From Pelagomonas calceolata (taxonomy: Eukaryota), in assembly GCA_918797485.1 (NCBI GenBank), contig CAKKNE010000002.1:4588001-4652000 (forward strand): a stretch of DNA of 64,000 nucleotides. The letters run 5' to 3'. Under the pieces are notes generated by a model. It made no database searches, was not told the origin of the DNA, and saw nothing but the letters and a program-made list of their open reading frames with translations. Shown here in pieces: positions 22 through 64,000 of this stretch. Positions within the stretch are counted from its first letter, which is position 1; each line of letters opens with the position of its first letter. The translations under genes and the position numbers were made by a program.

Positions 22-1629
22 CTACCGAGACACCGCCGCCTCCCTTTCACGCTTGCGCCACGCCGTGATCGTCATGTCCCCGATGCGCTCGAGCGGCGGC
101 GGGTGGTTGTCCTTCCAGCGCGTGTACTTGTCCGACCACATCTGCGTCGCGTCGGGCCCGTGGCCGTACATTTCCCAGAGTTCTAAGCCACAGGCAGCTA
201 GCGCCGCCTCGATACGCTCCGCATCGCCGGCCGGCCAGAGCCCGTCCTCGGAGCAGAGCAGCGCGCCCTGATACGACTGGCCGGCCTTGCGCGCGGCACC
301 CGAATAGTGGAAGACGGCCCAACTGAGATCATCGGCCGCGTCGACCGTCGTCCAATGTTCTTCGCTGACGATGCCATTGTCGAGCGTCGTCAAGGTCCAC
401 AATCCCGGCACGCCGCCGCGGGGCACGCATCGGTAGTGGCGCTTCGTCCAGACCTGTGTGGAACCCGTCGCGGCGATGGCGTGGGGTTGAGCGATTTCCG
501 CACCGGTCCAGACCAGCTCGCCCTGCAGCGTCTCGACGCAGAATACAGGGTCATACCAGAGCCCATCGCCGCTCTTGGTCGGGTAGAAGATCTGGTGCTG
601 CATCGGAAACGCGTCGTAGGCCGGGTTCGCACCCACCACAATCTTCCAGGACCACGGCTGTTTAGAAGACGCCGAGGCGGGGTCCTCGAGGTGGCCGATG
701 AAGATCTGCCGCGCCGCCTCGAGGTCGACGGGCCGGCCGCGCCACTGAGAGAGGACAGGTACTTTTGGTTCAGTCAGGATCGGCGCATCGGATTGGAAAC
801 AATTGTTCTGCTGCAGGATGCACAGCGAGAACTCCTCCAGTTGTGGGGTCTCGTTGGACACGATCACTCGGTAAGACCCGACCTGATCCCTCAAATCCAC
901 GGCGTTGAGCGCGTCGATGGCCGACTTCGTCTTCGGGTCGCTCAGCGCCGCCGCGATCTGCGGGCCGCAGCAGTCGGTCATGGTCTTGAACTCCTGGAGG
1001 TTCCTCACGACTCCTTTCTCCCAGCTAGGATTGATGTCGCTCGCGACCACGGCGCACGGCCGCACCAGTGCGTGCACAAGGAACAATGCGGCGAAGAGCG
1101 CGTCCTCGGAGGAACCGCGAGCCAGGAGCAATTCGCTCTGCGCCAGCAGTCGCGCGCGACTCGCCTTCGTCGTGAACGGGAGGGCCTTCTGCAGTTTATC
1201 TAAAATGCTGGCGGCGCCCGGTGTCCACCCCGCGCAGAACGCGAGCGCTTTGACGTCCGACGAGCACTCGTCGTCCGCCACGAAGCACGACGGCTGGAGC
1301 CGCGCCAGCGTCGCCTTCGTCTTTGAGACGTCCGTCACGCCCAGACCAATCACGACGTCGCCGGCCGCCGCGTCCGTCGTGCCGCTCACCTTTGCGTCGA
1401 AGTGCCCCACGCGTCTCGCGAGTTGAGACGCTACGGTGGCGTGAGCTGGATTTGGTCGCGGGCTCGACGCGCCGTATACCTTCGAAACGCCGTCGCCGTG
1501 CAAGAAGAGCACCGTGGCATCGTCACTGACAGCTCGCAGCGCCGCTGGCGTGCGCACGCGTCGGGTTGGTGCCAGCAGAGCGGTGCTCAGCTGGCAGCCC
1601 AAGAGTAGTACTAGGGCCCGTGCAGTCAT
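22..1629 (-). CDS. VDR: Violaxanthin de-epoxidase-related (VDR-like) protein with an N-terminal targeting peptide; one in-frame 60-nt intron (454-513), about 515 aa after splicing
   Basis: VDE/VDR-family motifs DQVGSYRVIVSNETPQLEEFSLCILQQNNC, WKIVVGANPAYDAFPMQHQIFY, WYDPVF and HYSGAARKAGQSYQGALLCS. Hydrophobic N-terminus MTARALVLLLGCQLSTA. Removing 454-513 restores LVWTKRHY. Confidence 0.8.
   Translation of the reverse strand: MTARALVLLLGCQLSTALLAPTRRVRTPAALRAVSDDATVLFLHGDGVSKVYGASSPRPNPAHATVASQLARRVGHFDAKVSGTTDAAAGDVVIGLGVTDVSKTKATLARLQPSCFVADDECSSDVKALAFCAGWTPGAASILDKLQKALPFTTKASRARLLAQSELLLARGSSEDALFAALFLVHALVRPCAVVASDINPSWEKGVVRNLQEFKTMTDCCGPQIAAALSDPKTKSAIDALNAVDLRDQVGSYRVIVSNETPQLEEFSLCILQQNNCFQSDAPILTEPKVPVLSQWRGRPVDLEAARQIFIGHLEDPASASSKQPWSWKIVVGANPAYDAFPMQHQIFYPTKSGDGLWYDPVFCVETLQGELVWTGAEIAQPHAIAATGSTQVWTKRHYRCVPRGGVPGLWTLTTLDNGIVSEEHWTTVDAADDLSWAVFHYSGAARKAGQSYQGALLCSEDGLWPAGDAERIEAALAACGLELWEMYGHGPDATQMWSDKYTRWKDNHPPPLERIGDMTITAWRKREREAAVSR
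454..513 (-). mobile_element. Introner-type intron, 60 nt, GT-AG, phase 0
   Basis: Perfect 8-bp direct repeat gtccagac at 446-453 and 506-513 flanks a 52-bp element with TIRs ctgtgtggaa / ttccgcaccg. On the minus strand it reads GTCTGGAC-cggtgcggaa...ttccacacAG|GTCTGGAC. Confidence 0.92.
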
Positions 1630-1728
1630 CTTCGCGTCGACAGCGATGACAGCAGCAACAGATACAACAAGTTTGCCAACTATTGCGTCGCAAATAAGCG
1701 GAATACGCCTGGATGCGCTGGCTGTCGA

Positions 1729-1752
1729 GCTAGCGTCCTATAAAGACACTAG
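1729..1752. promoter_or_regulatory. Copy of recurrent upstream motif CTAGTGTCTWW-N-CGCTAGC (reverse orientation)
   Basis: gctagcgtcctataaagacactag lies between the divergent VDR and RlmJ starts. Confidence 0.6.
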
Positions 1753-1886
1753 GCAGCGCTTTGTTTTTGGCCTTGATCATCCTGCTCGCAACCACCCACA
1801 GGGATCGTAAAAATCCGTAATTAATCATTTCAAGACGCCTGCCGCCGCGTAATGCAGTCGTAGGAGCAATACCACTGCAGGCTGCA

Positions 1887-2933
1887 ATGTGCTCACTGCT
1901 GCTGCTGCTCGTCGTCGCGCCGGCAGCAGCGCTGCGCGGCACCCCACTGCGCGCAACAACACGCCTCGACTACGACCACCTCTACCACATCGGCTCGCCC
2001 GTCGACGTCTTCAAGCATTGCGTCCTCACGGCGCTGCTGCGGCGCTGCACGGAGAAGGCGTCGCCGCTAACTTATGTCGAGACGCACGCCGGCCGCGGGC
2101 TTTATCCGTTCGACTCCGAGGAAGCGGCAACGCTGGCCGAGTTCGAGGACGGGCATCATAAGCTGCGGGCGCGAGCCGCGGGCCGCGAGAAGCTTCATGC
2201 AGACATCGCGGCGTATCTTGCGGCCCAGCGACCAGAGGAGTATGTAGGATCCGCCGCTCTGGCAGCCCTAGCGCTGCGCGAGGGCGACCGCGGCGTCTTC
2301 TTCGAACGCGATGAAACGTGTGCCGACGCGCTCACGGACGCCTTGTCCCGTCTTGGGGCGGAGTCTACCGTCGAGGTTGGCGACGGCTACGTCGGCACCT
2401 GTGTGGAAATCAACCAGTGAGTTAGGTTGTCGCGTCGATGGCGTAGAATCTCCACGCCATCGAGCAGATGCAGTTACAGGGAAGACGCCGGGTCGATGGC
2501 GTGGGGCGTCCGAAATTTGGTTTCCGCACAGGCCGGCACGAAGAAGCTGCGCGTCTCAACCCGCGGCCTCGTGTTTGTGGACCCGCCGTACCAGTCGGGC
2601 AGCGACACTGACCTCATCGCCGCGCTCTGCGGCCACCTCAAGCAGTACTGGCGGGCCGCGCGTATCGCTGTGTGGTACCCGCGCGGCGACGGCGCCGACG
2701 CGCGTACGGAACGGCTGCGTCACGAAGTCCTCGCCGCGACCGGTGCGTTCGACGTGCTGGACGCGCACCTGACCGTGCCCGGGGACGCGTCGGCGCGACT
2801 CCGGTCGTCGGGGATGCTCCTCGTGCAGCCGCCGTACGGCTTCGACGACGACCTCGAGTCACTGTTGCCCGAGCTCGCGGAGCTGCTCGCGCCGGGCGGG
2901 AGTTGGGGCGTGGAGTGGCTTCGGCGGGGCTAG
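1887..2933 (+). CDS. rlmJ: RlmJ-like 23S rRNA adenine N6-methyltransferase with a signal peptide; exons 1887-2390 and 2532-2933, about 301 aa
   Basis: YHIGSPVDVFKH, YVETHAGRGLY, YVGS, DGY, RGLVFVDPPY, AVWYP and SGMLLVQPPYG match RlmJ/YhiR motifs. The two ORF-track halves join in frame after removing 2391-2531. Confidence 0.85.
2391..2531 (+). mobile_element. Introner-type intron, 141 nt, GT-AG, phase 0
   Basis: TSD gtcggcac (2391-2398) vs gccggcac (2532-2539), 7/8 identical. 15-bp TIRs ctgtgtggaaatcaa / ttggtttccgcacag. Internal hairpin tcgatggcgt (2435-2444) / acgccatcga (2454-2463). Confidence 0.92.
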
Positions 2934-2974
2934 TTGTGAATGTTGTAATCTTATCACTTTTTACACAGTTCCGC

Positions 2975-3817
2975 TCACTGGTCCAGTTCCCGGAGCATTC
3001 TCGCCGCGTCGGCTCTAGCGGTATCCGTCAGGTGCTTGTACTCGTACTCGCCGTCAAAGATCTTCTTGAGCCAGAACCGCGCGCGAGCGGGGTCTTTCGG
3101 CAGGCCGTGGCCGCCTTCGAAGAACGCCCAGCCAAGTTGATACGCGGCGAGGTCCGAACCCAGACCCGCCGCCTCGGTCGCGTTCATGATCCCAAATGCA
3201 GTGTCCTGGGGCCCACCGAGGCCAAGCAGGAGATATTCACCAAAAGCGGCCATCCCTTTCGGGTCTCGGGCCGCCGCGCTGCGCTCGTACCACGCGCGGG
3301 CTTGCGCATTGTCTTTCGCGAGGCCGTTCATACCTTCTCGGTACCACGCGCCGAGCATATACATAGCTTCCCCGTCGCCTCCTCCCGCCATCGCGCGCGT
3401 CTCCTTCACTTCCTTTTCATCCTCCAGCTTCTGTTTCCACGCCTCAGCAATCTCGCCCGCGATGGCGCCGCTCTCGACCAGCGCCTCGATCGTGTTTCGC
3501 GCTTGCGGTGCTGGGAATAACTTCGTCCCGATGACGGCACCCGTGCTCGGGCTGGTTGGCTCACCATCTTTCTTCGAGAACCACTCGCGGATGGCTTTCT
3601 CCTCGTAGATCTTGCCGTCTTCGGCGGTCACGGGTTTGATCGGCAATTCGTGCGTGATCGGACAGATGAACTCCCTCGCGATGGCGGCCAAGGTTTTTTG
3701 TTTCTTCTCTGCGTTCGCGTCCGCCTCGTCGCGTTCCTCGAGCGCCCTTTTTTTCATAGCATCGGCCACTTTCAGTAGATTTTTGCCCCGCGGCGGCGGG
3801 CCGGCGGCGTCAGCCAT
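2975..3817 (-). CDS. U-box plus Sel1-repeat protein
   Basis: U-box EFICPITHELPIKPVTAEDGKIYEEKAIREWF...TSPSTG, followed by Sel1-like repeats (AMYMLGAWYREGMNGLAKDNAQARAWYERSA; AAYQLGWAFFEGGHGLPKDPARARFW). Likely ATG at 3817. Confidence 0.85.
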   Translation of the reverse strand: MADAAGPPPRGKNLLKVADAMKKRALEERDEADANAEKKQKTLAAIAREFICPITHELPIKPVTAEDGKIYEEKAIREWFSKKDGEPTSPSTGAVIGTKLFPAPQARNTIEALVESGAIAGEIAEAWKQKLEDEKEVKETRAMAGGGDGEAMYMLGAWYREGMNGLAKDNAQARAWYERSAAARDPKGMAAFGEYLLLGLGGPQDTAFGIMNATEAAGLGSDLAAYQLGWAFFEGGHGLPKDPARARFWLKKIFDGEYEYKHLTDTARADAARMLRELDQ

Positions 3818-4020
3818 CGTCGCCGTCGGACGCGTCGCGCTGCCTCCGAGTACTGCAGGACAACAAGGTGTGTAGTCGCGTTGCAGCCGAAATTGCGCTG
3901 TTTCGCTCGGATCTCCCGTAGCGCAGCGCAACAGTGCCTGCCTCGGTCCAAAATCGACTGCAAAAGCACGGGTAGCGGCTGTCCTCTCGGCGCCAGAGAG
4001 CCTGAGACCCTGGAATTGCT

Positions 4021-4043
4021 CTAGTGTCTTACTAGCCGCTAGC
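4021..4043. promoter_or_regulatory. Copy of recurrent upstream motif
   Basis: ctagtgtcttactagccgctagc lies between divergent starts at 3817(-) and 4305(+). Confidence 0.6.
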
Positions 4044-4304
4044 AAAACGGGAGAGCGCTTCCGTCGTGCAACGACGAAGACTAGTTCGACGCCGCACCGA
4101 CTCCTCCAGCTCCGAACGCAACAACACTAGCGCTGGGCAACCAAACACAGCCTTTGCGGAGCGCCGCCTTTGGCACGGCCCGCCGAGGCGCGCGGCGCGG
4201 CACCGGGACACGGCAGCCGCCAAACAGTGGTCAGGGCTCCACGCCATCCCCTGAAGCAGAAGAGGGCTGCCCCCCATCACCTATCACCCAGGACAAGAGC
4301 AGCC

Positions 4305-6376
4305 ATGATCCACGCCCACGACGTCGAGGCCGAGCTCTGGCGCTTCGTCGACGACGGGGACCAACCTTCACCAAATGATTTGTGGAGGTGCATCCAGTAC
4401 ACGGCGCGCAAGAAGGCGACGGCGCTGCCCAGTAGCTTCACGCGGGACAGCGAGATGCATTTGGTCGATCAACACATGATCGATACGACGGACCGACATC
4501 TCGTCAAGGCCTTCTGCGAGCAGTTCCGGCCGGGCGCCACGGAGCGAGATATGCAGAAACCATTATTTTATCTCACGCCGTTCATCACTTGTAGCAAGTG
4601 CAATAGCATACTCTTTATCGACGCGGCGAACGCGCGGTGCTTCGGGGCGCCCGTGCCCGAATCCGTGCGGTTGAAGCGGGGCGGCAACGAGACGCTGGCC
4701 GTCTGTCCGGGCTGCGCCATGACGGAAAATTTGGAAGTGGGTGCTCATGACTTCATGGAGGACATCGAGGACGCGAGTCTCGGCGTCCCGTCGCGTAGAG
4801 ACGCCTTCACTTCATTAATACGACTCGTGTCCATCAGACGATTTTGAGGCAGTTCGGACCGATTTGACGGAAATGCTCCGCGCAGGCGAGGGAGGCCATG
4901 GCCAAGGAGATGAAGAAGCGGAAGCGGGCCGCATCTCTATTGATCATGGTCTACCGGTTTTATTTGAGGAGGCAGCTAGCTCGCGCAGCTAGAACGAGGC
5001 AGAAGTGCCGCTACTACCTGTATCATCGGTGCGCGTCTATTGTCGAGAGTGCGGCGCGTGGCAGACTCGGGAGACGACGAGCAAGGACCTTCGAGAACCT
5101 GAGGTACATTAAGAACAGGCATCCCATCAGTCTGAAGAAAGCATTAGCTCAAAAGTTCGAAGTCGACAAACGGACGGGCGAGTCGAAGCGCCTAAAAAAG
5201 GTCTTCTGGTACCATACGAAAGTCCAGCTCGATTGCCTGTACCGGGACTACTTCATCCTGTGTCAACGGACGGGCTTCGTACCTCCCAGAATTATCGTCG
5301 AGCAAAATATTGAAGAGATTGCTAGGCGTATTAGGGTACGGGAAGAGTACCTGATCACGCTCATCCAAGCGTTGTACCGCGGGATCATATTGAGGAAATG
5401 TTTGGAGATTTATAAATACGAGATCATACGAATACGAGAAATTCGGGCGCAGTCGTGCTTTCGCATCGGCACGATCTGGCGGGGCTACGTCGCGCGGAAG
5501 CTGCGCGTGCCGGCGCGCATAGCTCAGGTATTACGACGAAAACGCCCAGAACAGTACGCGCGCGAACGGCGGGAGAAGCGCGACCGCATCCGCGCGAAAG
5601 CGGCCCGATCTAGGTTGAGGCAGCTCTACGAGAAGGAGCGCGCCGAGGAGGCGACAGCTAGAGCGTCCGGTCTCGTGAACCCGAACAATGCGCCGGGCGG
5701 CGGCGGCAAGAAGATGGCCGCATTTCTCGACTCAGCCTATGGCTCCGACGACGTGCGGCGGGGCGGCCGGCAGCTCTTGGATGGCATCGCCGAATATGAT
5801 GCGCGCATTCAGAGAGAAAAGGAGGAGAAGCAAGCGCGCAAGGACTGGTTACGGAAGGCCGTGGCCGACGAAGCGGAGCGAGGACCGAAATTTCTACGGG
5901 GAAAAATAGCCAAGGACAACTACAATGGCACTTATGACATCGACTTCGAGGACGGCACGAAGGAGGCGAGTGTTGATGTGCTGAAGATCAAGCAGGCCGA
6001 GGGCTTTCCGAAGCCGTCGCTAGGCCACAAGTGGAAGGTCGGGATGGTATGCCTGGGCCGGTATTCGCATAAGCGGGATCTCTGCGGCCACGACGTGAAC
6101 GACGCGGGTGCGTATAAGCGCTACTATCATCGCGACGAGATGTCTGCTAACTCGCAACAGTTAATTGACAAGTTGACCACTTTTCAAGTGAAGCCGTCGC
6201 ACGATTCTCGATCGTTGCTGAAGAACCATAATCAAAGGATGGAGAAGCGGGGGCGAGGGATTTCTTTCGACTTTCCTTCCACATTATATGGCGACCCGCG
6301 CGCGGCGCTCTACGAGGGCGAGCGGAGTCCCATCTCGCCGAAGGACTCCGAGGCGCGCGCCGGGGAGTTCACGTAA
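4305..6376 (+). CDS. IQ-motif-containing protein with an N-terminal CxxC/CxxC module and a Tudor-like segment; exons 4305-4772 and 4886-6376, about 652 aa
   Basis: ORFs 4170..4847 and 4898..6376 join in frame (FMEDIED|AREAMAKEMKK). IQ-like motifs IQALYRGIILRK, IGTIWRGYVARK and VESAARGRLGRR. Cys pairs CSKC and CPGC. Tudor/SH3-like stretch GKIAKDNYNGTYDIDFEDG. Confidence 0.7.
4773..4885 (+). mobile_element. Introner-type intron, 113 nt, GC-AG, phase 0
   Basis: gcgagtct (donor) vs gcgaggga (next exon), 5/8 identical. The 5' end cggcgtcc and 3' end tttgaggcagttcggaccga...atgctccgcgcag are homologous to the 12768-12892 intron. Confidence 0.85.
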
Positions 6377-6477
6377 TTAGTTTGAGTGTATGGTCGTTTT
6401 GGGGGTGCGGCGGCGGCGTTTCGGGGAACTGCGTCGTAGTAGGGCGCATTTGCTCGTTTTTTTTTTAACCCCTACCA

Positions 6478-7197: not shown

Positions 7198-7502
7198 CTT
7201 TGGCGCTTTTGCACGCCTGCTGAGCGTAGGAACGTCAGGCTTCGCCAGTTTGCCCGTCCCAGATTGTTTGGCAGTGTAGATCTAGGGACAGACGAGTATT
7301 TTGACCATTGTGTCTGGCTGCGCGTCGCGGCGACGGCGTTTTTTACAGCAGTGCAGTGGAGGGTGCTGCGGCGCTGCTTACAGTCCACGAGGACAGCTAG
7401 CGTTGCGCAGCTTGCAAGATCCGAGATCTTGCACGGCAGCGCTGCACCTCGGACGATTTATACGGGCGATAAGGCCCGGGCCGGCGTGCTTTGCTTTGAT
7501 GC

Positions 7503-7524
7503 CTAGTGTCTTACGACCGCTAGC
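7503..7524. promoter_or_regulatory. Copy of recurrent upstream motif
   Basis: ctagtgtcttacgaccgctagc lies between starts at 7197(-) and 7688(+). Confidence 0.6.
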
Positions 7525-7687
7525 TAGCTCCGCGGCGCAGCGCTTGTCCTTTGGGCCGTAGCCGTGGCTTGGCAGCAAACGCTGTAGTTCTCTTTGTTCC
7601 TACACCTCTTCGCTGTTGCACCGCGACAACGGACGTCTCCGCGTGCGCCAGCCGTCACACAAGCTAGCAAGAAGCAGCAGAGCCACC

Positions 7688-8410: not shown

Positions 8411-8824
8411 CATAAAACTCCGCCCGTTTTTCTCACGTTGTGTTGAGCACTCACTGCGACGGCGTTCGCCGGCGACTCGTCTCTGACCCTGATCAGGATC
8501 GGCGGGCCAATCAGGCTCTCACGCCAGGTTGGAGATGCCGCTTGGCACGGCCTGCTTCCGCCAAGAAAAGGAGCTATTCTGCACTCGCGGCGCGGTAGGA
8601 GCGCACTGGACACGTTGGCTTCACGAGCAGCGCAGCAGCCTGCTCGCGATTTGCCCTAGCTCGTTTGAGCAGCGATAATTTGGAAGTGGCAGCAGAGTTG
8701 CAGGACGCGAGCGCGCGCAACAGGAGCGTACGATCAACGTCCAGACGAGCAACAGAGGAACAACGCAACAGACGAGCAACGCGGAAGCGCGCAACAGAGT
8801 CGCACAGCTACAAGCAACGCAGCG

Positions 8825-9565: not shown

Positions 9566-9680
9566 CCCGCGTGTCATGTATATCTAAACTTATGTATATC
9601 GGGAGTATCTATGCGGACCATGCCACTGGCAGCGTCCGCCGTTATCATCGGCTTGCAAGTGGAAAAGTCTATGTAGAATC

Positions 9681-12600: not shown

Positions 12601-13066
12601 TTGCACCGATCGACGCCGGCCCCATGTTCTAAGAGCATGGTCATCGGTTTTACATGGCCCTCCTGGACAGCTAAAGCCAACGAAGTCAAACCCGCGGAAT
12701 CGGTCTTGTCGACTTCCGCCCCATTTCGCAGCAGCAGCGACACGACTTCTTCATTATTGGTCGCGACCTGCGCGGAGCATCGCGGTTCGGTCCGAACGGC
12801 CTCAAATTCGAAAAAGAAACCACCCCCGGCCTCCTCTCCTGGAGACGACGTGCGTCGATGGCGTGAAGGCACCGCAGGACGCCGAGATATACGGCCATCA
12901 TGAGCGGGAACCAGTCCCGATCGCATTCGTTGATGTCCGCGCCGCTGTCAATAGCTCTTTTCATCGCTGTGGTTTCTCCTCTTTGCGCCATGAGGTTGAG
13001 GGCGTTGGCGTGGAGGGACCAGGGCGAGGCGGCGCCCCGCGTCGTGGTCTTGCTTGGTGTGGCCAT
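9681..13066 (-). CDS. Ankyrin-repeat protein with a C-terminal coiled coil; exons 13066-12893 and 12767-9681, about 1086 aa
   Basis: Multiple ankyrin repeats (GATPLHAAVRRG, GTAPLFLACSNG, GATPLHAAVYRGRLGLVRLLLSHGADVN). Splicing gives FPLMMA|VATNNEEVVSLLLRNGA, a complete repeat. Confidence 0.85.
12768..12892 (-). mobile_element. Introner-type intron, 125 nt, GT-AG, phase 0
   Basis: gtatatct-cggcgtcc...acgccatcgacgcacgtcgtctccaggagag...tgaggccgttcggaccg...ctccgcgcag|gtcgcgac. The body is clearly homologous to the introns at 40570-40702 and 4773-4885. Confidence 0.88.
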
Positions 13067-16500: not shown

Positions 16501-18116
16501 TGGTACTGGCGACCTGGCTCAATTGGCCAAACGGTGCGCCGAGAAGCGCGAGATGGCTTCACAAGCGCATGCCGAAGCGCGAGCCTTCCGAGATGAAGCT
16601 TTGAAGTTTGCGGAGGCGCAGCGGTTAGCCGACGAGGAAGAACGTAGAAGGAAGGAGGAGGAAGAACGTCGACGTAGAGAAGAGGAGGCGCGTTTACGGA
16701 GAGAAGCGGAAGAGCGTAAACGTAAAGAAGAGGAAGCGAGGGTCGCGGCCGAGGCCGAACAACTTCGTAGGAAGGAGGAGGAGGCTAAGCAACAGCATGA
16801 GGCCCGCATCGCCGCCGCGAAGGACGCCGCTGCTGCTGAAGAATTAAGGAAGGCCGAGTTGATACGCGAAGCCCAAGCTAGAGAGAATGAAAGACAACTA
16901 AGGGTCAAGGCCGAGAAGCTGCGGCGGGCCAAGGAGAAGGCGGCCAACGACGCGAAGGCCGCGCAAGCGTTTGCCGCGTTCGATGTACCAAAAACGCGCC
17001 TGTCCGACGTCCAGCCGCCCACGCCCCAGAAGCTCACGACGCAGTTGTCGGGCGGGTTTTCGTCCCCAAAACCGCCGCCGCCGCCGGATGATGAAGATGA
17101 AGAATTTGTGGACGACGAGGCCGGTCCGTATCGCAGCGTCTTCATTGACCCGTACGCCATCGACGCGTCTCGCGACGATATCGATCGACACAGGCTACGA
17201 CCAGGACGACGACGACTTCATCGAAGAAGCCCTGAGCCCGTCGAAGAAAGTGAGTGCCGAGTGGGTCGTCCAACATTTACGACGGTTCAAGCGGTGGTAC
17301 GTGGTCGAGAGACTTGGTAGTGACGGGAACGTCTGCAAGTACGAGCCGCCTCCCCCGCCGCCCTTGGAGATTCTGAACCGGCCCCACCCGCCCCTACCGC
17401 CGAGACGAGAGGTCAACGCTCTCAGAGATATGGCTTTTAGAGGTGTCGACCTGTGCCCGGAAGATCCAGCACCTAGAGATAGACGGACTTGTTTATTGCA
17501 CTGCGTCGTGAAGCGGAAGAAGTCGACGTTAGGTTCAGCACAATTTGAGTTTTCCTTGTCTTGCTTGCCTGATGATACATTACTCACAGCTAAGTTGTCA
17601 GGCAAGCACTGGCAGCTGTTTGATGGAGACGCGACGTTACCCTACGGCCAGTTGCGGGACGCCATGTCCATGACGGCTAGGCCTGATTCGGAGATGGGTC
17701 TGTTCGGCCACCAGCGAGCGAACCGAGGTGGCGCTCCCAGGGAGATCGGCGTCGTCGTGGAACCACCTGTCTCTGATGCGGGCTTTCTGGAAAGCTTGGG
17801 AGGGGCCAAGAACCTACCCGGCGGCGCGTTGTTCGATCGGTTCTCGCGGCACGACCCGCGCTTGGTGGTCTGCATGCAGCGCGACCCCGTGAAGCGCAAC
17901 GGGAAGTACTCGCTGGACTTCCGGGGAAGAGGCAAGGTCGCGTCGGTCAAGAACTTCCAACTACAGGCCGCGGCGGACCCCGGGCGACGCTCCAAAAAGG
18001 CGGACATCGTCTTGCAGTTCGCCAAGGTGTCTGCCAATAGATTTCACTTGGACTTCGCGGCGCCGTTCACGCCGACGACGGCCTTCGCGCTGGCCGTGTC
18101 GACGTGCGTGACCTAG
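13559..18116 (+). CDS. Unconventional myosin with an Ala-rich coiled coil, an ER/K single-alpha-helix tract and a C-terminal Tubby domain; exons 13559-17123 and 17194-18116, about 1495 aa
   Basis: Motor motifs LVAVNP, SGESGAGKT, NHNSSRFG, YLLEKSRV, GILDIFGYE, INYANESLQ and FCRCIKP. Exon 2 has the Tubby C-terminal signature YSLDFRGRGKVASVKNFQL...VLQFAKVSANRFHLDFAAPFTPTTAFALAVS. The frames join exactly across a 70-nt intron. Confidence 0.85.
17124..17193 (+). mobile_element. Introner-type intron, 70 nt, GT-AG, phase 1
   Basis: gtccgtat-cgcagcgtc...tacgccatcgacgcg...cgacacag|gctacgac. It shares the 5' end cgcagcgtc and the core with intron 62763-62902. Confidence 0.82.
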
Positions 18117-39006: not shown

Positions 39007-41935
39007 ATGCTCCAGGGCGGCAACATGGACCGCGTAGGTGCCTACAACCAGCGCTCGAGCGCCTACAACATGTGCGGCGCGAACGAGGACGACGTCGTCG
39101 AGCCCCAACGAACTAGACGAAGTAGACGCCCGAGGGAGTACGATGAAGTACAATATGAGGACGACGACTCCCAGTCGACGGCGCCCTCGCGCGGCGACCG
39201 TGGGAGCTTTGATGATGCGCCGCCGCGACGGCCGCGTCGGCGCCAGCGGGAGTGGCCCCAGGAGGACCCCGAGGACCAGCTTGCGCCGCCCCCGACCCAC
39301 GAGAGAAGGGCCGTGAAAGCAATAGCATACACGAGACAAGATGAAAAGAGCCCTGGTCCCGCCGCGACGCCGTCGTCCAAAGGCTCGGCGTTCGGCAAGC
39401 TGTTCACACCTAAAAAACCGAAGGAAAGCTTCAGAACGAAAACTCTGACCGAATTAACTGAGACGGGAACGTCGAGCGTAGCTAGGGTCAAGGAGGGCAA
39501 CGTCAAGTTCCCGAATTCGTGGTCAGGACATAAGGTCACGGTCTTCAATCCCTATCACCCGCGGCGGCTCATGTGGGACGCGACGATGCACCTTTCTGTG
39601 TGGAAATGCCCTTCAATCTGGGGTGCTGCTCTCTGGATACGGTCGAGTGTATCCCTTGGAGATCGTGTCCGAGTTTGGGCCGAAAACATGGCCGCGGTGC
39701 CGAGATAGCGAGACGCGATAAGCTGACTCACACACAGGCTCATACTCATTATCATTATTGCGGTGGTGACGCCCTTTGAGTTGACGTTCCTGGACGGGGT
39801 CCCCTTCGGCAAGGCCGACTGCCCGACGGACAAGCACGGCTGCCCGGCGCCGGGCGACTTGTTCTTGTTCTGGCTCAATCGTTTGAGCGACTGCTTCTTT
39901 TTGGTTGATATGGTCCTGACGTTCAACACGTCGTTCTTCGATAGTATACGAGGGCGGTGGGTGGAAGAGCGGTCGGTCATCGCGCGGGAGTACCTCCGTT
40001 GCTGGTTCTGGCTCGACGTCCTCTCGCTCCTCCCCTACTCCCTGATGTTCTCGGAGATCAAGGCTGCTGGATTAATCAGAGTCATCCGTTTAGTTCGACT
40101 ACTGAAGCTCCTCAAGCTCGCGAAGCAGCCGCGGATCATGGCCAAGCTCCGCCAGTTCGTGACCATGCCCATCAAGCAGCAGACGCTGATCAAGTACTTC
40201 TTCATCATCTTCTTCATCATCCATTGGACGGCCTGTACGCTACGATTACTTACGTCATTTGCGGTCGGCGACTGTCGGCCCAAAGGTAGCGATATGCACA
40301 GTGGCCTACCTTTTGATGATGAATGTGCGAGAACCTACTTGAACACGAACAGGAGGTGGGGCCAGGGCCCCTGGTCGCAATATGCCTCGGCCATCATCTG
40401 GAGCATCGGCGCGATGTCGGGCGAGGCTTATCTGCCCGCGAACATGGAGGAGACCGTATTAAACACTTTAGTGATGCTCATGGGCATCGTGGTCATGGCC
40501 TTCTTGGTGGGCGAGCTCTCAAATATTCTCGGGAATTTTGATCCGGTCGGGAACGAATTCGAGCAGACCGTACGGGCTCGGTGTCTCGTATCTCAACAGT
40601 TTTACGCCATCGACGCGCGTCGTCTCCAGGAGAGCTTGTGAAGGGTGGTCGCTTTTGCGATTCTGAGGCCGTTCGCACCGCGACGGTTCCGTCCGCACAC
40701 AGGTCGACAACCTCGACGCGTACTTTGAGAGCAACCAGTACCCGGAGATGCTGCGGTTGAAACTGAGGGAGTATGTACTACTTACTGAACCCATATATAG
40801 AGAAAAGTATTACATCGAGCTCATGAAGCAGTTCTCGCCGGCTCTGAGGACTACCGTGGCCAATTTCCAGTTGTCTCATTATGTGGCCAATATCCCCTTT
40901 TTTGCATTTGCTATTCAAAGAGGCTGCGGGTTTGAAGAGGGCGCCATCATGGACGTGCAGGAGCCCCCGCAACAGGTCGGTTCTGGTGACAGGGAGGAAG
41001 TGTGGAGACGAGCCACCATCGTGGCTGCGGATCCCATGACCGAAGGCTACGAGGTGGCCTACCATGACGGGCAAAGTACGAATGAAACGAAGGTTTCTGT
41101 GAATAGGCTGCGGGCGGTAGATCAAAGGTTACACTACCGGATGATCCACATTAACAGATTAAGGCGCAAGTTCGTGGGCGACTTCGCGTTACGGCTAGAA
41201 CCCATGTTATTTATGCCGGGCGACGCCATCATCGAGGCGAACTGGTCTCGATGCGATTCCCTCTACTTGGTGACGACGGGCACGTGTATCGTGGTCAAAG
41301 AAAGGTTAAACAGTATGTTCGATATTAGATTGAGACACTACGGTTCCACGATCGGTGGCGACATCTCGACGTTGCTGATAGCCGGCGAGAAACGGCGCTT
41401 ACGACACTACGACTGCAAGGCGCACAACGCCGTTCAAATTTACAAGATGGCCGACGGTGAATTTCTGAGCTTGATGGCCTTCGAGAACTACGCGGAGTTC
41501 GCGCGGACGATCAAATATTTCGGGTTCTGCATGCTCGTCAAGATGCTCACGTTCCGACAGATGGAGAAGGCGACGGCGGCCGGCCTGACGCTGCAGCAAC
41601 AATTCGCCAAGCTCGAGGCGGCGAATCCGTTCGTGCGCGAGAATGAAACTCCTAAAAGTAAGGAAAAGCCGGTCAAGGTTCGCTTGGCTTCCGATCTAAC
41701 TGGTTTGTTGGATCAGCTCGGTTTGTCGAAGTCTGTCAGGTCGAAAGTTGTAGCGGAGTTGAAGAAGCACGAGATCTACAACCTCGAGACTGCTCAAAGT
41801 CTGAGAGTGGAGGACTGGGACATGCTAGATTTGAAGATGGGGACGCGGCGCCTAATCCTGGCGAAGCTCGGCGCGCTCGGCGGAAGTTATTTGGGGTCGT
41901 TGACGGACCCGTCCCAGGGCTGCGCGCGGCCCTAG
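39007..41935 (+). CDS. Voltage-gated CNBD-family (EAG/HCN/CNG-like) ion channel with an atypical pore, a Tudor-like insert and a C-terminal SAM domain; exons 39007-39587, 39738-40569 and 40703-41935, about 881 aa
   Basis: S1 WDATMLILIIIIAVVTPFELTF (after splicing), S2 DCFFLVDMVLTFNT, S3 YLRCWFWLDVLSLLPY, S4 IRVIRLVRLLKLLKL and S5 IHWTAC. C-linker EQT|VDNLDAYFESNQYPEMLRLKLREY. CNBD-like FMPGDAII...DSLYLVTTG. SAM-like tail. Confidence 0.82.
39588..39737 (+). mobile_element. Introner-type intron, 150 nt, GC-AG, phase 2
   Basis: gcaccttt followed by TIR ctgtgtggaaat; ends acacacag|gctcatac. Removing it deletes the stop at 39706-39708 and restores the S1 helix. Confidence 0.8.
40570..40702 (+). 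mobile_element. Introner-type intron, 133 nt, GT-AG, phase 0
   Basis: Contains acgccatcgacgcgcgtcgtctccaggagag...gggtggt...tgaggccgttcgcaccg, homologous to 12768-12892. Ends gcacacag|gtcgac and joins the frames. Confidence 0.88.
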
Positions 41936-46107: not shown

Positions 46108-47202
46108 ATGCATCGACTCATTCTCACCCTGCTGCTGACCAGCGCCGCAGCGATGCGGTTCGAGGACTATGAGGTCGCATTCAACAAGAAGTATTCCTTC
46201 GGAGAGCGCATGATTCGCCGCGCGCATTTCGAGCAGTCGCTCCAACGCGTCGCGGCCCACAACGCGGGCGGCCACTCGTGGAGAGCTGGCATCAACCAAT
46301 TCTCTGACCTCTCCGACGAAGAATTTAAGAACAGCTACCTGATGAGACCGCAAAAGTGCAGCGCCACGAACACCGTCGGCGTTCCGGGGGAAACTGCGCA
46401 TCTCCGCGGCGCCGAGAACAAGAAGAAAACGGCCGATCTGCCCCCGAGCATCGACTGGCGCTCGCGCGGCATCGTCTCCGAGGTGAAGAACCAGGGCGGC
46501 TGCGGAAGCTGCTGGACCTTCTCGACGACTGGAGCACTCGAGGCTCACCTCGCGCTCAAGGCGGGCGCGTGGCGAGCGCCGCGATTGTCCGAGCAGCAGC
46601 TGGTGGACTGCGCGGGCGCCTTCGACACGAAGGGCTGCGACGGCGGGCTACCATCGCACGCTTTTGAATACATAAAACATGCCGGGGGCCTCTCGACCGA
46701 GTTCGCCTATCCGTACCACGCGAAGGACCAGAAGTGCTCGTTCAACGCCTCGGCGTCGGTCACGGCCCCGCAGTCCAACGGCATCGGCATCCGAGTGCCC
46801 GGTGGGAGCGTGAATCTCACCAAGGGCGACGAGGTGGCTCTCAAGTACTACCTGGCCACCAAAGGGCCGGTGTCGGTGGCGTTCGATGTGGCGTCCGATT
46901 TCAGAGATTACAAGAGCGGCGTCTACTCGTCGACGATCTGCAGCCACGACGCGGAGCACGCGAGTCACCGTGCGAAAAAAAATGTTGCGACGCGAGCTCA
47001 CCGGTCGATGTCCACGCAGGTCAACCACGCGGTGCTGGCCGTCGGCTACGGCGTCGATCCGGTCTCGGCCAAGCCCTACTGGCTCATCAAGAACTCGTGG
47101 GACTACACCTGGGGCGATTCGGGATACTTCCGCATGGAGGCGTTCAAGAATATGTGTGGTGTTGCCGACTGCAACTCGTTCCCTGATCTATACGGCGCCT
47201 GA
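46108..47202 (+). CDS. CTSH: Cathepsin H-like papain-family cysteine protease; in-frame intron 46960-47019, about 344 aa
   Basis: Signal peptide, I29 prodomain (ERFNIN-like, GINQFSDL), mini-chain PQKCSAT, QGGCGSCWTFSTTG, GGLPSHAFEYI, NHAVLAVGYG and YWLIKNSW. Confidence 0.9.
   Translation: MHRLILTLLLTSAAAMRFEDYEVAFNKKYSFGERMIRRAHFEQSLQRVAAHNAGGHSWRAGINQFSDLSDEEFKNSYLMRPQKCSATNTVGVPGETAHLRGAENKKKTADLPPSIDWRSRGIVSEVKNQGGCGSCWTFSTTGALEAHLALKAGAWRAPRLSEQQLVDCAGAFDTKGCDGGLPSHAFEYIKHAGGLSTEFAYPYHAKDQKCSFNASASVTAPQSNGIGIRVPGGSVNLTKGDEVALKYYLATKGPVSVAFDVASDFRDYKSGVYSSTICSHDAEHASHRAKKNVATRAHRSMSTQVNHAVLAVGYGVDPVSAKPYWLIKNSWDYTWGDSGYFRMEAFKNMCGVADCNSFPDLYGA
46960..47019 (+). mobile_element. Introner-type intron, 60 nt, GC-AG, phase 0
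   Basis: gcgagtca-ccgtgcgaaaa...gatgtccacgcag|gtcaacca. The 3' end is identical to that of intron 63850-63928. Removal restores CSHDAEH-VNHAV spacing typical of cathepsin H. Confidence 0.82.
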
Positions 47203-47342
47203 CTCTGAGCCGACGTCAACGCTGTCGACGCGACTACTCGATGGCTAGACTCGATGGCGTACGTCGCGACAACGACAATTGCGCGAAGACATGTGTTCCC
47301 CCTTCCTGTGTAATATACGATAACATCTTACAAAGATAGTGG

Positions 47343-52291: not shown

Positions 52292-52315
52292 GCCCCTTCC
52301 CCACCTAAAGCTATA

Positions 52316-53396
52316 TTATTCACATGCCGTGCGCGCGACCACGAACACGACGGGCTGCGCCCGCGGACGCCCTCCCCGGACCGGGTCGAGAACGAGCCCG
52401 ATGCACGGGTGCCGCCGCAGGAAGCGATACAACGCGCGCATCTCCTGGTCCGGGCGCACGCACTTCATGTCGTCTCCGCACCTGCCCCGCTGGAACTCGA
52501 CGAGCTCGTGGCTGTGCGGAAATCCAATGTCACGCGACGCCTGCTCGATGGCGAATATTCCACACAGCTGCATACAAGTGGAGGCGCGTGCCGACGACGA
52601 AGCGCTCGTGGAGCCGTTCGAGCACGTCGAGGGCGCCCTCGTAGAGGTCGTTGTCGATGTTCAGGAACGTGACGTCTCCAGCGTTCGCCTCCAGAAATGG
52701 CCCGAGCGTCTCGTTGAACAAGCCAGTGACGAGCTCGACGCCCGCGCGTACCGGCGGCGTCGGCGTGCCGTGGTCCTCGCGCCAGCTGAACGCGCCCTGC
52801 TTCCACTTGGGGCGGGCCTGGCGCTTCGACGTCTTCCATTCGGTAGGAATGCCCTCGAACGTGTCAAAACCAACGACGCGCGGCAGCGCCCCGGGGAAGC
52901 CGCGGGCCTCGAACGTGTCCCGGAGTGCGGCGGTCGCATTTATAGATGTGCCCCGATACACGCCGAACTCGAGCCACAGCGCCGGCCGCGCGTGCGCCCT
53001 CGCAAATGTAGGATCCTGCGTCGCGCGCCACAGCGCCACCGTCAGCGTCTCGTACGCCTGGAGCGCGCTGCGGTATTGTCGAGCGTCGCGGTCGGGCCAG
53101 CCCACGCGTTTCAGAGCAGCGCGCGCGGCCTCAGCGTCCGCGACGGCGGGCCGCCGCGCGACGACGTAGCGCGCGAGGGCCGCGGTCAGTGGGCCGACGC
53201 CGCCGCCTGACACCGGTATGGCGCGCGCGCCGTGGCCCGGGCAGTGACCGATGCATGGCCAGCTCGCGTAGTTATACTTGTTGTTGTGCGCCGCGAGCCG
53301 CTCGGCCGCGTTGCGCCGCGCGCGCGCCAGGGCGGTCTCGCCGGTCTCGTCCGCGACCGCGGCCGCGCAAGCGGCGAGCAAAAGAGTCGCGCGCAT
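52316..53396 (-). CDS. Class I SAM-dependent methyltransferase (TylF/MycF/NovP-like) with a signal peptide; exons 53396-52576 and 52511-52316, about 338 aa
   Basis: WLEFGVYRGTSIN, GFDTFEGIP, LVTGLFNETL and FLNIDNDLYEGA. The spliced junction gives GTRLHF|HEL...QEMRALYRF. Confidence 0.8.
52512..52575 (-). mobile_element. Introner-type intron, 64 nt, GT-AG, phase 2
   Basis: gtatgcag-ctgtgtggaa...cgccatcgagcag...atttccgcacag|ccacgagc. Near-perfect TIRs but no recognisable TSD. Confidence 0.85.
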
Positions 53397-58974: not shown

Positions 58975-58981
58975 CACATTA

Positions 58982-60561: not shown

Positions 60562-61333
60562 CTACACGGCGAGCTCCGCCGGCAGGAAGTACCGGAACGC
60601 GTCGCGCAAATCGTCGTCCCGGCCGCGCGCGAAGAGGCGGTCCATGGACCGCGCGACCTGCTTCTCCGACAGGAGCCCCTGGTCGTAGCGGCGGAGCGTG
60701 GCCAGGGCCTCGGCGTGGGCCGTAGGACCCAAACCGCGGCGGAGCTCCTCCAAAAACTCGGCGACGAGCCGCGACTCGTCTTCATCAACAGCGATGATGC
60801 CGGCGTCGTCCTCGTCGTCGGTGTTGGGATCGGGATCGCCGACGACGAGGAAGTAGCGCGCGACCTGTGCGGTACGTCGCGTCGATGGCGTGGCGCCACG
60901 AAGAGTTGATTTCCGCGATTTCCGCACGGCGCGATACGACGCGCCGCAACCGCGTGCCGACGGATTTTCGGATCTTATCTAAATCGTCGCCGTACTTGCG
61001 CACGGCGCGCTCGAATTTTTGAGAAGTCTCCGGCGACCAGTCCTTGCCCCGTATCGCCATCTCGCGCTCGAGCGCCGCGGGGTCCTCCACAAACGACCCG
61101 CCCCGCCCCTCGGCGGGCGGCGGGCGGCGCCGGTCGAGCCGCGGCAGCGACGCCTGGTGCCGCGGCCCAATTTTTATTTTGGCGTGGCTCCAGTCCGTCT
61201 TGTTCGAGAGCGGCCGCGGCCGCGGGCGGCTCTCCTTGCGGACCGCGGTGTGCATCGCGCGGTCGGCCTCTTTTTCCGCGGCCGCATAGAAACCCTCGGG
61301 CAGTTTGCCGGGGCGGCGGCGGGCGGCGAGCAT
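60562..61333 (-). CDS. ELM2-like + SANT/Myb + PAH-like small nuclear protein; exons 61333-60938 and 60864-60562, about 232 aa
   Basis: KIKIGPRHQASLP (ELM2 start), WSPETSQKFERAVRKYGDDLDKIRKSVGTRLRRV|VARYFL (SANT) and FLEELRR...LATLRRYDQGLLSEKQVARSMDRLF...DLRDAFRYFLP (PAH-like). Confidence 0.75.
60865..60937 (-). mobile_element. Introner-type intron, 73 nt, GT-AG, phase 0
   Basis: TSD gtatcgcg vs gtcgcgcg (6/8). TIRs ccgtgcgg / ccgcacag. Core acgccatcgacgcg. Confidence 0.9.
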
Positions 61334-61922
61334 CGTGGTTCGGCGGCGCGCTCGCGGCGTGTTTTGAGGGTTCGCCCTCGCGTTGCGGCGGTGTCGCGCG
61401 CGCAGCGAATCGACCTGTTTTACTCGGGTCACTCTGAGAGAGCAGGTTGCAACTTGCAACTTGCAAGCTCTCCTGAGCCCGGCGATTATCAATGCGGCGT
61501 TGCGTCGCGCGTACTTGGCGATCTGCGTTATTTACGCAACACACTGATCGATGCCTAAGAAAAAAGTTGCGCTGGGCTCGTAAAACCCGTTTTGTTTTTC
61601 GGAGTTCTCTTCCGGTGAAGCATGCATGCTTCTCCACAGGGATGGCTCCCCGGGCTACAGCTTGCCTTCCATTTATGATTTCTCCTCTCCGCAGGCATCT
61701 GGAGGGGGGGAGCAAAAAGCTGCAAAAACGAAGCCATTCCTGGGTTCGCCTTGGCAGCAAGTGCCACAAAAGAAGCCAATCAATTGCCCATCAATACCGA
61801 TCGAGCGCGGAGCTGTCTATCGTGCATTCGGCAGCTCCAGGCAGAGATCTCTGCTGTGCGCTCGGGAACAGGGAGAGTTTCGGCAACCGCGCGAGACAGC
61901 CGAAAGGCTGCGCGGCTGACAC

Positions 61923-61989
61923 CGCGGCCGGCCCTGCATAGCTAGCACCGCAAAACACGCGGCCGGCCCTGCAGCTAGCACCGCAAAAC
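61923..61989. repeat. Two-copy tandem duplication (34/32 nt) just upstream of the PH-PDZ ATG
   Basis: cgcggccggccctgca(ta)gctagcaccgcaaaac at 61923-61956 and 61958-61989. Confidence 0.8.
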
Positions 61990-62000
61990 CGCGCGTCAAA

Positions 62001-64000
62001 ATGAGCGGCATCCCGCGCAGTAGGGAAGGCGAGCTCCTCAAAAAAGAAAAGGGCCCCTTGGGAGCGAAGTGGACGCGGAAACTCGTCGTTGTTGATGGAA
62101 GAAAAGGCACGGTAAGGTATCATCGGCCGACGGACGACAAGAGCGATGTTCCCAGAAAAATCTTCCATTTGAAGTCCATGACGCTCATTGAAGATTGCAT
62201 GGGCCCGAAGAAAGCCCCCCACGCTCTAGAATTGAGGGATCTCAAGGGCTATTCTCTTATTTTAGCTTGCGAGAGAGGTGCAGGAGAAAAAGAGGCCTGG
62301 CGGAGCCTGTTAGCACCCTTATGTGCGGGCGGCACGCCTGTTGCTGCAGCTCGCACGGCATCGACGGACTGGGTCGATCCACAATCAAAACCACCGGAGG
62401 AGGACGAGCCGTGGCCCGTGCCGCAAACTTTTGACAGTGCTCTGGCCAAGCCGTTCGAGACCTACGAGGCGACCTTCCTGCCGGACCAACCGCTGGGTAT
62501 CCAACTACGACTCGAACCGGAGGTGGATGGGAAGCGCGCCATCCTCGTGCTCGAGGTCAAGGACACGTGTCCGCAGAAAGGTACTATACAATCGGGCGAC
62601 GAGTTGGTAGGGGTACAAAATGAACCGCCCTTGACACCACGAACGACCGATGAATTCAAGAAGTGCACGACCGAACTGGCGCGAAAACCGAGACCATTGG
62701 TACTAGTTTTCCGGCGGGAGGTCAGTGAGACGCCGTTCGACGAGCCCGACGACTCGCCCAAGGTCCGCGACGCAGCGTCCTTACGCCATCGACGCGACTC
62801 GGCTCCATCTTCTGAGCCAATTCATTCGCGTCGGGGCCTCGCGTCAATGGCGTCTTCACGAGACCGCGCCGCCGCGACGCCGTCATAATGATCACAACGC
62901 AGGCGCCCTCCTTCGACGAGGCCCCTCCTTCACATGTCGTGGACGAGCCCGTGCGGCTGAACGCGACGTGCGAGCAGCCGCCTACGTCGTTAACTCTCTG
63001 TTTGGCTCGTAGTGATGAATTTTCGCGCGCGTGTGTCCGAGTCGAGAAAGGATCATGTGCTGGGTTACAGGTATTAGATGACCTCGTGGCCCTGGACGCG
63101 GAGGACCTGACGCTCGTCGACGCGGAGACAGCTCTAGAACGCCTGACGCAGCGATTGATGCGGGGACCCTTTCCTTGCAGGGTCGGCGTGCTGAGGAGGC
63201 CGAGCGTCTTCAGCCTCGAGTTCCCCGACGACGGGAGGCCTCTTGGTGTCGTATTACGACTGATAACACCTCCCACGGGCGGCGCGTCGCGCGTTCTAGT
63301 GGAGAGTATACATAGAGACGACGGGCCGGCGGGGGAATTAGAACCGAGGAATGATGAATTGGTGGCGATCGAGGGCGAGCCCATTGGCCGGGACTGCGGG
63401 CCGGCCGACTTTGATGCTTTATTACTCAAATTGAAGGGTGCTGCAAGACCGCTCAAACTCACATTCGTGCGCGCGGGGAGCATGTCCCAGGACCCGCGCG
63501 ACGCCACGATTTATGGAAGAGCCGTCATCGAGGAGCCGCCTGTATCCTTCGAGGAAACCAGAGCGGCGGCGATGTCGCCGTCAGCGGCCTTCGGGGCTCC
63601 GGTCGATCCCGTGGCAGCAGATGATGGAAGTGACTGGGGCGACCCTCCTCCTTCAACGGACGATTCTTCATCCGACGAGGGCGCCGCAATTGGTGTGGAT
63701 GCGAACATCGTGGAAGTCTCCGACGACGCGGCGGCCGTCTCTGATGAAGAGCCGCCGCCTCCACCCATCGTCGTGCCGCCGGTCGCCGACGTCCCGGCGC
63801 CGACGCCGTCGAAGCTCGCGGCATTTATGGCCAGCACGCCGAACCCCACGTCGCCGACCGCGTGAAAATCAAATTTCAGGCGTCTCACGCGACATGAGGA
63901 CCTCAATCACTGGTTGATGTCCACGCAGGTCGCCGAAGCCCACAAGTCAACAGACGCCGTCGCCGCCGCCGCCTCCCCAGGACGAGTCCCCGGGCGAACT
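62001..64000 (+). CDS. PH + PDZ-like domain protein, 3'-truncated by the window; exons 62001-62762, 62903-63849 and 63929->64000
   Basis: PH domain REGELLKKEKGPLGAKWTRKLVVV...EKEAWRSLL. PDZ-like PLGIQL...IQSGDELVGVQ...RPLVLVFRR and PLGVVL...NDELVAIEG...RPLKLTFVR. Frames join across two introns. Confidence 0.8.
62763..62902 (+). mobile_element. Introner-type intron, 140 nt, GT-AG, phase 0
   Basis: gtccgcga-cgcagcgtccttacgccatcgacgcg...caacgcag|gcgccctc. Joins ORFs 62001 and 62888 in frame. Confidence 0.85.
63850..63928 (+). mobile_element. Introner-type intron, 79 nt, GT-AG, phase 2
   Basis: Perfect TSD gtcgccga at 63850-63857 and 63929-63936. TIRs ccgcgtgaaaatcaa / ttgatgtccacgcag (12/15). 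The frame stays open to the window end after splicing. Confidence 0.92.

What the first reader, a model, noticed from the sequence alone, without database searches (positions are those of the whole stretch)
454..63928. Every reconstructable coding intron is an introner of one TIR/8-bp-TSD superfamily
Seen: 12 introns of 60-150 nt in unrelated genes, at 454-513, 2391-2531, 4773-4885, 12768-12892, 17124-17193, 39588-39737, 40570-40702, 46960-47019, 52512-52575, 60865-60937, 62763-62902 and 63850-63928. All 12 end in RCRCAG, the end of a TIR with consensus about CTGYGYGGAAATCAA. In 11/12 the element body starts with C exactly 8 nt after the donor. In 11/12 the downstream exon starts with GT or GC. 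Two have perfect 8-bp TSDs and most share the core ACGCCATCGACGCG. Each restores a reading frame or a conserved domain. Established: Aureococcus-type introners are non-autonomous DNA transposons that supply the AG and co-opt a GT/GC in the TSD, so splicing is scarless. Inference: intron content here is dominated by one long-running transposon invasion. No transposase is encoded in this window.
Basis: partly seen in the sequence, partly recalled or inferred. Interest (0 to 1): 0.78.

Follow-up and report, generated by a model that had tools for sequence, protein, structure and literature searches.

The report
Intron-making mini-transposons in a pelagophyte alga
All twelve proposed introns hold up against RNA reads or related proteins, seven are clear copies of a small jumping-DNA element that is cut out of the message without a scar, and the other five are likely an older related kind; this way of making introns is already known from these algae.

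Summary
The 12 introns are real: 5 of 5 within the RNA-tested 18.7 kb splice at the stated coordinates, and the other 7 fit related proteins without a scar. They are not one uniform family. Seven carry two terminal inverted repeats (TIRs) and remnants of an 8-bp target-site duplication (TSD). Five have no donor-side TIR and no TSD signal; they join the rest only by a short core motif and the acceptor end. In 98 metagenome copies of the TIR family the TSD is 8 bp and the modal length 203 bp. All 71 copies I could orient take a GT/GC donor from the TSD on the gene's strand, in either orientation (34:37). Close relatives carry copies at sites that are empty here, and a more distant lineage appears to lack five of these introns. 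No transposase was found. This is the Aureococcus-type introner, already reported for Pelagomonas. What may be new: nearly all introns here trace to it (15% published for P. calceolata), and a TIR-less second class. The scan's notes hold similar introners in other genomes, none with this sequence.

The parts
454..513 (-). Class A introner intron, 60 nt, in frame, perfect 8-bp TSD, in a VDE-lipocalin gene
   Evidence: (RNA junction)
2391..2531 (+). Class A introner intron (subfamily A2), 141 nt, TIRs 15/15 and 13/15, TSD 7/8, in an RlmJ-like gene
4773..4885 (+). Class B intron, 113 nt, GC donor, no donor-side TIR; 81% like 12768 over 47 nt
7318..7447 (-). Candidate 13th intron in a 5' untranslated region, 130 nt: GT donor, CTG at position 9, RCRCAG end; boundaries inferred, RNA support weak, family similarity not significant
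   Evidence: (joint 7308-7450, short side)
12768..12892 (-). Class B intron, 125 nt, in an ankyrin-repeat gene
17124..17193 (+). Class B intron, 70 nt, exact core motif, in a myosin-head plus Tub-domain gene
39588..39737 (+). Class A intron, 150 nt, GC donor, both TIRs (12/15, 11/15), interior unlike A1-A3; ion-channel gene
40570..40702 (+). Class B intron, 133 nt, 81% like 12768 over 80 nt; same ion-channel gene
46960..47019 (+). Class A intron, 60 nt, in frame, GC donor, in a papain-family protease gene
47188..47249 (-). Core-motif remnant without TIRs at and behind the end of the protease gene; not shown to be an intron
52512..52575 (-). Class A intron, 64 nt, both TIRs, TSD decayed (2/8), exon starts CC; TylF-like methyltransferase gene
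60865..60937 (-). Class A intron, 73 nt, TSD 6/8, inside a Myb domain
62763..62902 (+). Class B intron, 140 nt, exact core motif, PH-domain gene
63850..63928 (+). Class A intron, 79 nt, perfect 8-bp TSD, same PH-domain gene

Best explanation
Seven of the twelve introns are copies of a roughly 203-bp non-coding element with inverted-repeat ends and an 8-bp target duplication, likely moved by an unidentified cut-and-paste transposase, and the other five are likely an older related class that lacks the donor-side repeat. Steps: (1) inferred: a transposase encoded elsewhere makes a staggered 8-nt cut and inserts the element, duplicating 8 bp; (2) shown: both ends read CTG...CAG, so either orientation puts an AG at the 3' end; (3) shown: the donor is the first two bases of the upstream TSD copy, GT or GC, so splicing removes the element plus one TSD copy and leaves the original message; (4) inferred: insertions without GT/GC on the gene strand are purged by selection, not avoided through a palindromic target preference; (5) shown as a correlation, inferred as history: copies then shrink by internal deletion to 50-150 nt and lose TSD identity while keeping the splice dinucleotides.
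For: RNA junctions 5 of 5; gap-free homolog alignment for the other 7. Metagenome scan with a 19-nt TIR: 120 loci held, 123 matches, 102 with a partner TIR within 700 nt, 98 kept after filters. Flank identity peaks only at 8 nt: mean 0.81, 40 of 98 perfect, against 0.36 for shuffled pairs and 0.19-0.33 at lengths 2-7 and 9-12. A codon model that ignores splice signals oriented 71 of 91 copies with enough flank: donor GT 57, GC 14, other 0; 34 forward, 37 reverse. TSD mismatches are rarest at positions 1-2 (4 and 5 of 71, against 11-18). Shorter copies have poorer TSDs (rho 0.34, p 6e-4). Filled sites in close relatives that are empty here: P0088 (92% identical) reads through a near full-length A1 copy in the Myb gene (E 1e-26); P0022 reads both TIRs in the methyltransferase gene. 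P0086 (98%) reads into the same insertion as 60865 but with a different interior. A more distant lineage encodes uninterrupted proteins across 39588, 40570, 52512, 62763 and 63850, on record on contigs of up to 57-117 kb. Other copies occur in the same organism's RNA (hundreds of reads with loose ends at the 2391 TIR).
Against: Five introns fail the donor-side TIR and TSD tests; their best match to family A covers the core region, not the TIR, and 4773 has no significant match. 39588 has TIRs but no interior match. No autonomous element: no long two-TIR element among the 19 loci rechecked and no Pfam transposase in 42 frames from 10 loci, so DNA transposition rests on the TIR/TSD signature alone. 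Empty sites in relatives are read from protein records, not DNA; it is inferred that those gene calls ignore splicing because several read through introns. One of the 98 copies (L030) was mis-paired in the count. Preferential keeping of the terminal AG at the acceptor end was only borderline (33 of 34 against 30 of 37, p 0.057). The metagenome copies come from several organisms, not this genome alone.
Confidence: 0.88

Rival explanations
1. All twelve are one family of different ages: class B is simply class A whose donor-side TIR decayed or was deleted copy by copy.
For: All 12 join one single-linkage cluster (liberal threshold, 78 pairs); class B shares the core motif and an RCRCAG end; shorter, older copies lose TSD identity.
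Against: Class B copies share their own 5' motif at position 9-10 in the 5 window copies and 2 metagenome copies; independent decay would not give the same new end. 12768 and 40570 are 81% alike over 80 nt, most of it not found in A1-A3. The split in TIR match is clean (10-15 against 2-4 of 15).
Confidence: 0.25
2. Class B spreads by a different route, for example an element with unequal ends or an RNA-based copy mechanism, and only borrowed the core motif and acceptor from class A.
For: No TSD signal at positions 3-8 (6 of 30) and no TIR pair; all five lie in one orientation relative to the gene, unlike class A.
Against: All five downstream exons start GT/GC and four of five bodies start at position 9, as a TSD-derived donor predicts; 4773 matches its exon at the first five bases. 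With copies about 80% alike, loss of the TSD is expected.
Confidence: 0.15
3. The old-looking introns are ordinary ancient introns, and RCRCAG|GY is just this alga's splice-site consensus.
Against: The RNA-found junctions are unbiased and 5 of 5 fit; unrelated genes share 47-80 nt of intron sequence; relatives, including an Aureococcus-cluster protein on a 14-kb contig, have uninterrupted frames at the tested positions, three of them class B.
Confidence: 0.05

Closest known systems
Aureococcus anophagefferens introner elements (Huff, Zilberman and Roy 2016; paper not held; known here from passages of 10.1101/2020.10.14.339549, PMC10228655, PMC9481584 and from recall)
   Same: One splice site carried, the other recruited from the TSD; introns made in either orientation; length near 210 bp. 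Subfamily A3, from contigs of 67-75% GC, resembles an insertion read through in an Aureococcus-cluster protein (P0078, E about 2e-4, weak).
   Different: Interiors A1, A2 and class B are unlike A3. That the Aureococcus TSD is 8 bp is recalled and only implied by the passage I read. Most copies in this window are short and decayed.
Putative introner elements of Pelagomonas calceolata (Guerin et al. 2022, PMC9481584 and preprint 10.1101/2021.10.25.465678; passages and supplement passages read; figure S3 not seen)
   Same: 956 putative elements, intron length peak near 210 bp (203 + 8 = 211 here), GT and GC donors, AG acceptor, conserved TIR; genome GC 63% (62% here). Probably the same family.
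   Different: The passages give no TSD length or TIR sequence and count 15% of introns as over 90% repeat; no second class is described. That the window is this species is my inference from GC content and homologs, not tested.
Pelagomonas and Pelagococcus introner families in Gozashti et al. 2022 (PMC9860276 supplement rows; preprint passages)
   Same: Introner families are listed for Pelagomonas metagenome assemblies.
   Different: TSD and TIR are scored '?' for the four Pelagomonas families shown; here both are resolved. Their Aureococcus family 4 adds 12 nt to the message; the elements here are scarless.
Polarella glacialis introner-like classes 6, 8, 10 (10.1101/2020.10.14.339549, passages)
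   Same: 8-nt TSD, donor from the TSD, either orientation.
   Different: Dinoflagellate host, GA donors allowed, orientation bias; no sequence relation tested.

Membership tests
TIR/TSD introner, Aureococcus type (class A: 7 introns) | Spliced out as an intron at the element boundaries | tested here: met
   RNA for 454 and 2391; homolog alignment for the other five
TIR/TSD introner, Aureococcus type (class A: 7 introns) | Terminal inverted repeats | tested here: met
   10-15 of 15 at the donor side and 8-13 of 15 at the acceptor side
TIR/TSD introner, Aureococcus type (class A: 7 introns) | 8-bp target-site duplication | tested here: met
   29 of 42 at positions 3-8 in the window; peak at 8 only in 98 copies
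TIR/TSD introner, Aureococcus type (class A: 7 introns) | Donor co-opted from the TSD, acceptor carried, both orientations, scarless | tested here: met
   71 of 71 GT/GC, 34:37 orientation; gap-free junctions
TIR/TSD introner, Aureococcus type (class A: 7 introns) | Dispersed multicopy family with filled and empty sites among relatives | tested here: met
TIR/TSD introner, Aureococcus type (class A: 7 introns) | Insertion into nucleosome linkers | not testable with these tools
   No nucleosome data; modal length 203 bp (13 of 98) shared by three unrelated interiors
TIR/TSD introner, Aureococcus type (class B: 5 introns) | Paired terminal inverted repeats | tested here: not met
   2-4 of 15 at the donor side; no end-to-end stem in RNA folds
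TIR/TSD introner, Aureococcus type (class B: 5 introns) | 8-bp target-site duplication | tested here: not met
   6 of 30 at positions 3-8, chance 0.26; only the GT/GC exon start remains
Introner in the wide sense (class B) | Similar introns at unrelated positions, absent in relatives | tested here: met
   81% over 80 nt and 47 nt between unrelated genes; 2 more copies in metagenome loci; uninterrupted frames in relatives at 40570 and 62763
hAT superfamily MITE | 8-bp TSD | tested here: met
   that hAT, P and Merlin elements all make about 8-bp TSDs is recalled
hAT superfamily MITE | Autonomous partner with the same TIRs encoding a hAT transposase | tested here: inconclusive
   None in the window or in the loci checked; no whole genome held
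hAT superfamily MITE | Palindromic GT....AC-like target preference (recalled for hobo/Hermes) | tested here: not met
   Far end of the TSD is AC/GC in 16 of 71, background 17.5%

The most novel reading that the evidence does not exclude
Almost the whole intron complement of this alga's gene-dense chromosome arms was built by successive waves of mini-transposons that share one TIR and one 203-bp size but swap interiors, including an older wave that spread with unequal ends; the published 15% share counts only the youngest copies, and the lineage's unusual 14% GC-AG introns come from GC donors co-opted in target duplications and not from genome GC content.
Probability: 0.4. Interest if true: 0.55.

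Novelty: new member of a known kind. Interest (0 to 1): 0.3.

Why it matters
The mechanism is known, so the core result is confirmation. The added value is scale and decay: 12 of 12 coding introns in an ordinary 64-kb stretch show introner ancestry, against 15% of introns counted as repeats for P. calceolata, so standard searches may miss most introner-born introns once they shrink. It gives a testable alternative to the GC-content explanation of the 14% GC-AG introns in pelagophytes (10.1101/2024.10.30.620910, passages): GC donors are 14 of 71 among young copies and 3 of 12 here. The resolved TIR and 8-bp TSD give a handle for finding the mobilising transposase, and filled or empty sites could mark populations of an abundant ocean alga.

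Tried and rejected
Palindromic target preference (transposase choosing GT....AC sites): rejected, 16 of 71 against 17.5% background. Drift of old donors toward a better U1 match at position +3: no sign in 18 changed copies. Viral carrier: 0 hits for a 21-nt TIR; 13 hits for a 16-nt TIR, none with core or a TSD-flanked partner, taken as chance. Class B acceptor end in prokaryote genomes: 0 hits. Autonomous element: L030 looked 647 bp long but is two separate short copies; L028 is a chance match in coding sequence; unpaired TIRs in L001, L055, L071, L075 lead to no transposase domain (42 of 161 listed frames scanned). RNA folding: only 2391 and 63850 fold better than shuffles (z -3.5, -3.7; 2 of 12), so structure is no shared feature. 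Other RCRCAG|GY sites (16 of 27): 2399 is the second TIR of 2391; of the rest I inspected 24135 and 28897 by eye and found no donor-side TIR. No whole genome is held. Huff et al. 2016 is not held. Earlier scan notes: nothing by sequence or place. Literature searches showed no paper naming the transposase or a TIR-less second class in pelagophytes; most subscription papers, figure S3 of PMC9481584 and bioRxiv supplements could not be seen and may bear on this.
Full report
Setting. The window is 61.9% GC and gene-dense. The nearest named homologs are Aureococcus anophagefferens proteins at about 60% identity. I infer a pelagophyte alga, probably Pelagomonas or a close relative; this was not tested further. 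No whole genome is held.

Are the introns real? Yes. All 12 lie where stated, four on the minus strand. RNA could be laid on 1-18,700 only. There, all 5 listed introns are skipped at the stated coordinates in two raw runs of one sample and in contigs of two other samples (2391 in one of the two), and they are the only displayed joints with GT/GC..AG ends; 9 weaker joints were not displayed. For the 7 others I used homologs. The spliced ion-channel protein aligns without gaps at both junctions to the close homologs, Aureococcus included. The protease read through 46960 has 20 residues more than cathepsin H at that place. The methyltransferase, PH-domain and Myb genes align across 52512, 62763, 63850 and 60865.

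RCRCAG 12 of 12, C at position 9 11 of 12, exon start GT/GC 11 of 12 and two perfect TSDs are right. The 14-nt core is exact in 5 of 12, not most; as a 10-mer it is still strongly enriched in the introns (8 of 11 hits in 1.9% of bases). 454 and 46960 are in frame without stops.

Two classes. Scored against the TIR, seven introns match 10-15 of 15 bases at position 9 and keep 29 of 42 TSD bases at positions 3-8. Five (4773, 12768, 17124, 40570, 62763) match 2-4 of 15 and 6 of 30, both at chance. These five resemble each other (12768 and 40570 81% over 80 nt; 4773 and 12768 81% over 47 nt), share a 5' motif of their own, lie in one orientation, and have two more copies in metagenome loci. They touch class A through the core and the acceptor end. 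So 'one TIR/8-bp-TSD superfamily' is shown for 7 and inferred for 5.

The family outside the window. Flank identity peaks only at 8 nt (0.81; 40 perfect; shuffled pairs 0.36). The modal length is 203 bp (13 of 98) with a tail down to 54, and shorter copies have poorer TSDs (rho 0.34). Three unrelated interiors (A1 58, A2 20, A3 4 of 82 assigned) share the TIR and the 203-bp size; 39588 seems to be a fourth. A codon model oriented 71 of 91 copies: all 71 have GT (57) or GC (14) at the TSD start on the gene's strand, 34 forward and 37 reverse. The far end of the TSD shows no enrichment (16 of 71 against 17.5%), which rejects a palindromic target preference and leaves selection, or a one-sided preference, as the filter. 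Only 2 of 98 copies lack GT/GC on both sides.

Gain, not inheritance. Protein records whose gene calls read through introns show different filled sites in close relatives. P0088 carries a near full-length A1 copy at a Myb-gene site that is empty here (E 1e-26). P0022 carries both TIRs at another site of the methyltransferase gene. P0021 and three relatives carry a different 64-nt intron 6 nt from the 52512 site (read from the translation only). P0015 spans 63850 without a break but begins just behind 62763, as expected if the first is young and the second older. A more distant lineage encodes uninterrupted proteins across five of the junctions, with contigs of 57-117 kb on record, and an Aureococcus-cluster protein on a 14-kb contig spans both ion-channel junctions. 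This is indirect: the DNA behind these records was not fetched.

Mechanism. Shown: symmetric ends that supply AG in either orientation, an 8-bp TSD, a donor taken from its first two bases, scarless splicing. Inferred: cut-and-paste mobilisation by a transposase encoded elsewhere, purging of insertions without GT/GC, and shrinkage by deletion. No transposase domain was found in 123 of 125 long frames of the window or in 42 frames from 10 loci. The superfamily is open; an 8-bp TSD fits hAT among others (recalled).

'Every intron'. No coding counter-example appeared in the RNA-tested part or in a coarse frame track. In-frame introns beyond 18.7 kb could be missed. A candidate 13th intron at 7318-7447 on the minus strand, in a 5' untranslated region, has weak RNA support and only the minimal features.

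What is in print. Guerin et al. 2022 report 956 putative introners in P. calceolata with a 210-bp peak, GT/GC donors, AG and a conserved TIR, 15% of introns (passages and supplement passages). The Aureococcus pattern is described in passages of 10.1101/2020.10.14.339549 and PMC10228655; Huff et al. 2016 itself was not available. Gozashti et al. 2022 list Pelagomonas families with TSD and TIR unresolved (supplement rows). Passages of PMC12130899 and PMC11282704 give the general picture and do not name pelagophytes. Sibbald et al. ascribe 14% GC-AG introns to GC content (passages).

Verdict. A real, well-supported example of a known kind. The parts worth following are the share of decayed introner-born introns, the TIR-less class, and the missing transposase.

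Noticed in passing
   Followed up: partly
window 47188-47249: Core-motif remnant without TIRs between two convergent genes.
   Followed up: partly
window 52319-53480 (-), with P0021, P0022, P0057-P0059: Three different intron insertion sites within about 100 bp of the methyltransferase gene among close relatives, two of them 6 nt apart and both 64 nt long; a possible insertion hot zone.
   Followed up: partly
window 2391-2531: The youngest long copy may splice incompletely: 14 and 1 junction reads at depths near 20 and 6, and no junction contig in X5. Numbers are small.
   Followed up: no
L003, L005, L009, L010, L015, L098, L115 and others: Three unrelated interiors share one TIR and a 203-bp length; the A3 interior sits in contigs of 67-75% GC and weakly resembles an insertion in an Aureococcus-cluster protein.
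   Followed up: partly
window 13556-18116 (+): One spliced transcript joins a myosin motor domain to a Tub-family domain.
   Followed up: no
window 53908-58974 (+): A 1688-codon frame with SAP, about nine Tudor-like repeats, CXXC and MBD domain matches; a likely chromatin or methyl-DNA reader.
   Followed up: no
window 1821-2933 (+) and 52319-53480 (-): RlmJ-like and TylF-like methyltransferases, families mostly known from bacteria (own knowledge), each now holding an introner intron.
   Followed up: no
window 3416-3512: Reads with six or more differences lie on the U-box/Sel1 gene, which itself has almost no coverage; probably from a paralog.
   Followed up: no
window 30569-37732 (+): A 2387-codon uninterrupted frame with a NACHT/AAA-like start and many EF hands.
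   Followed up: no
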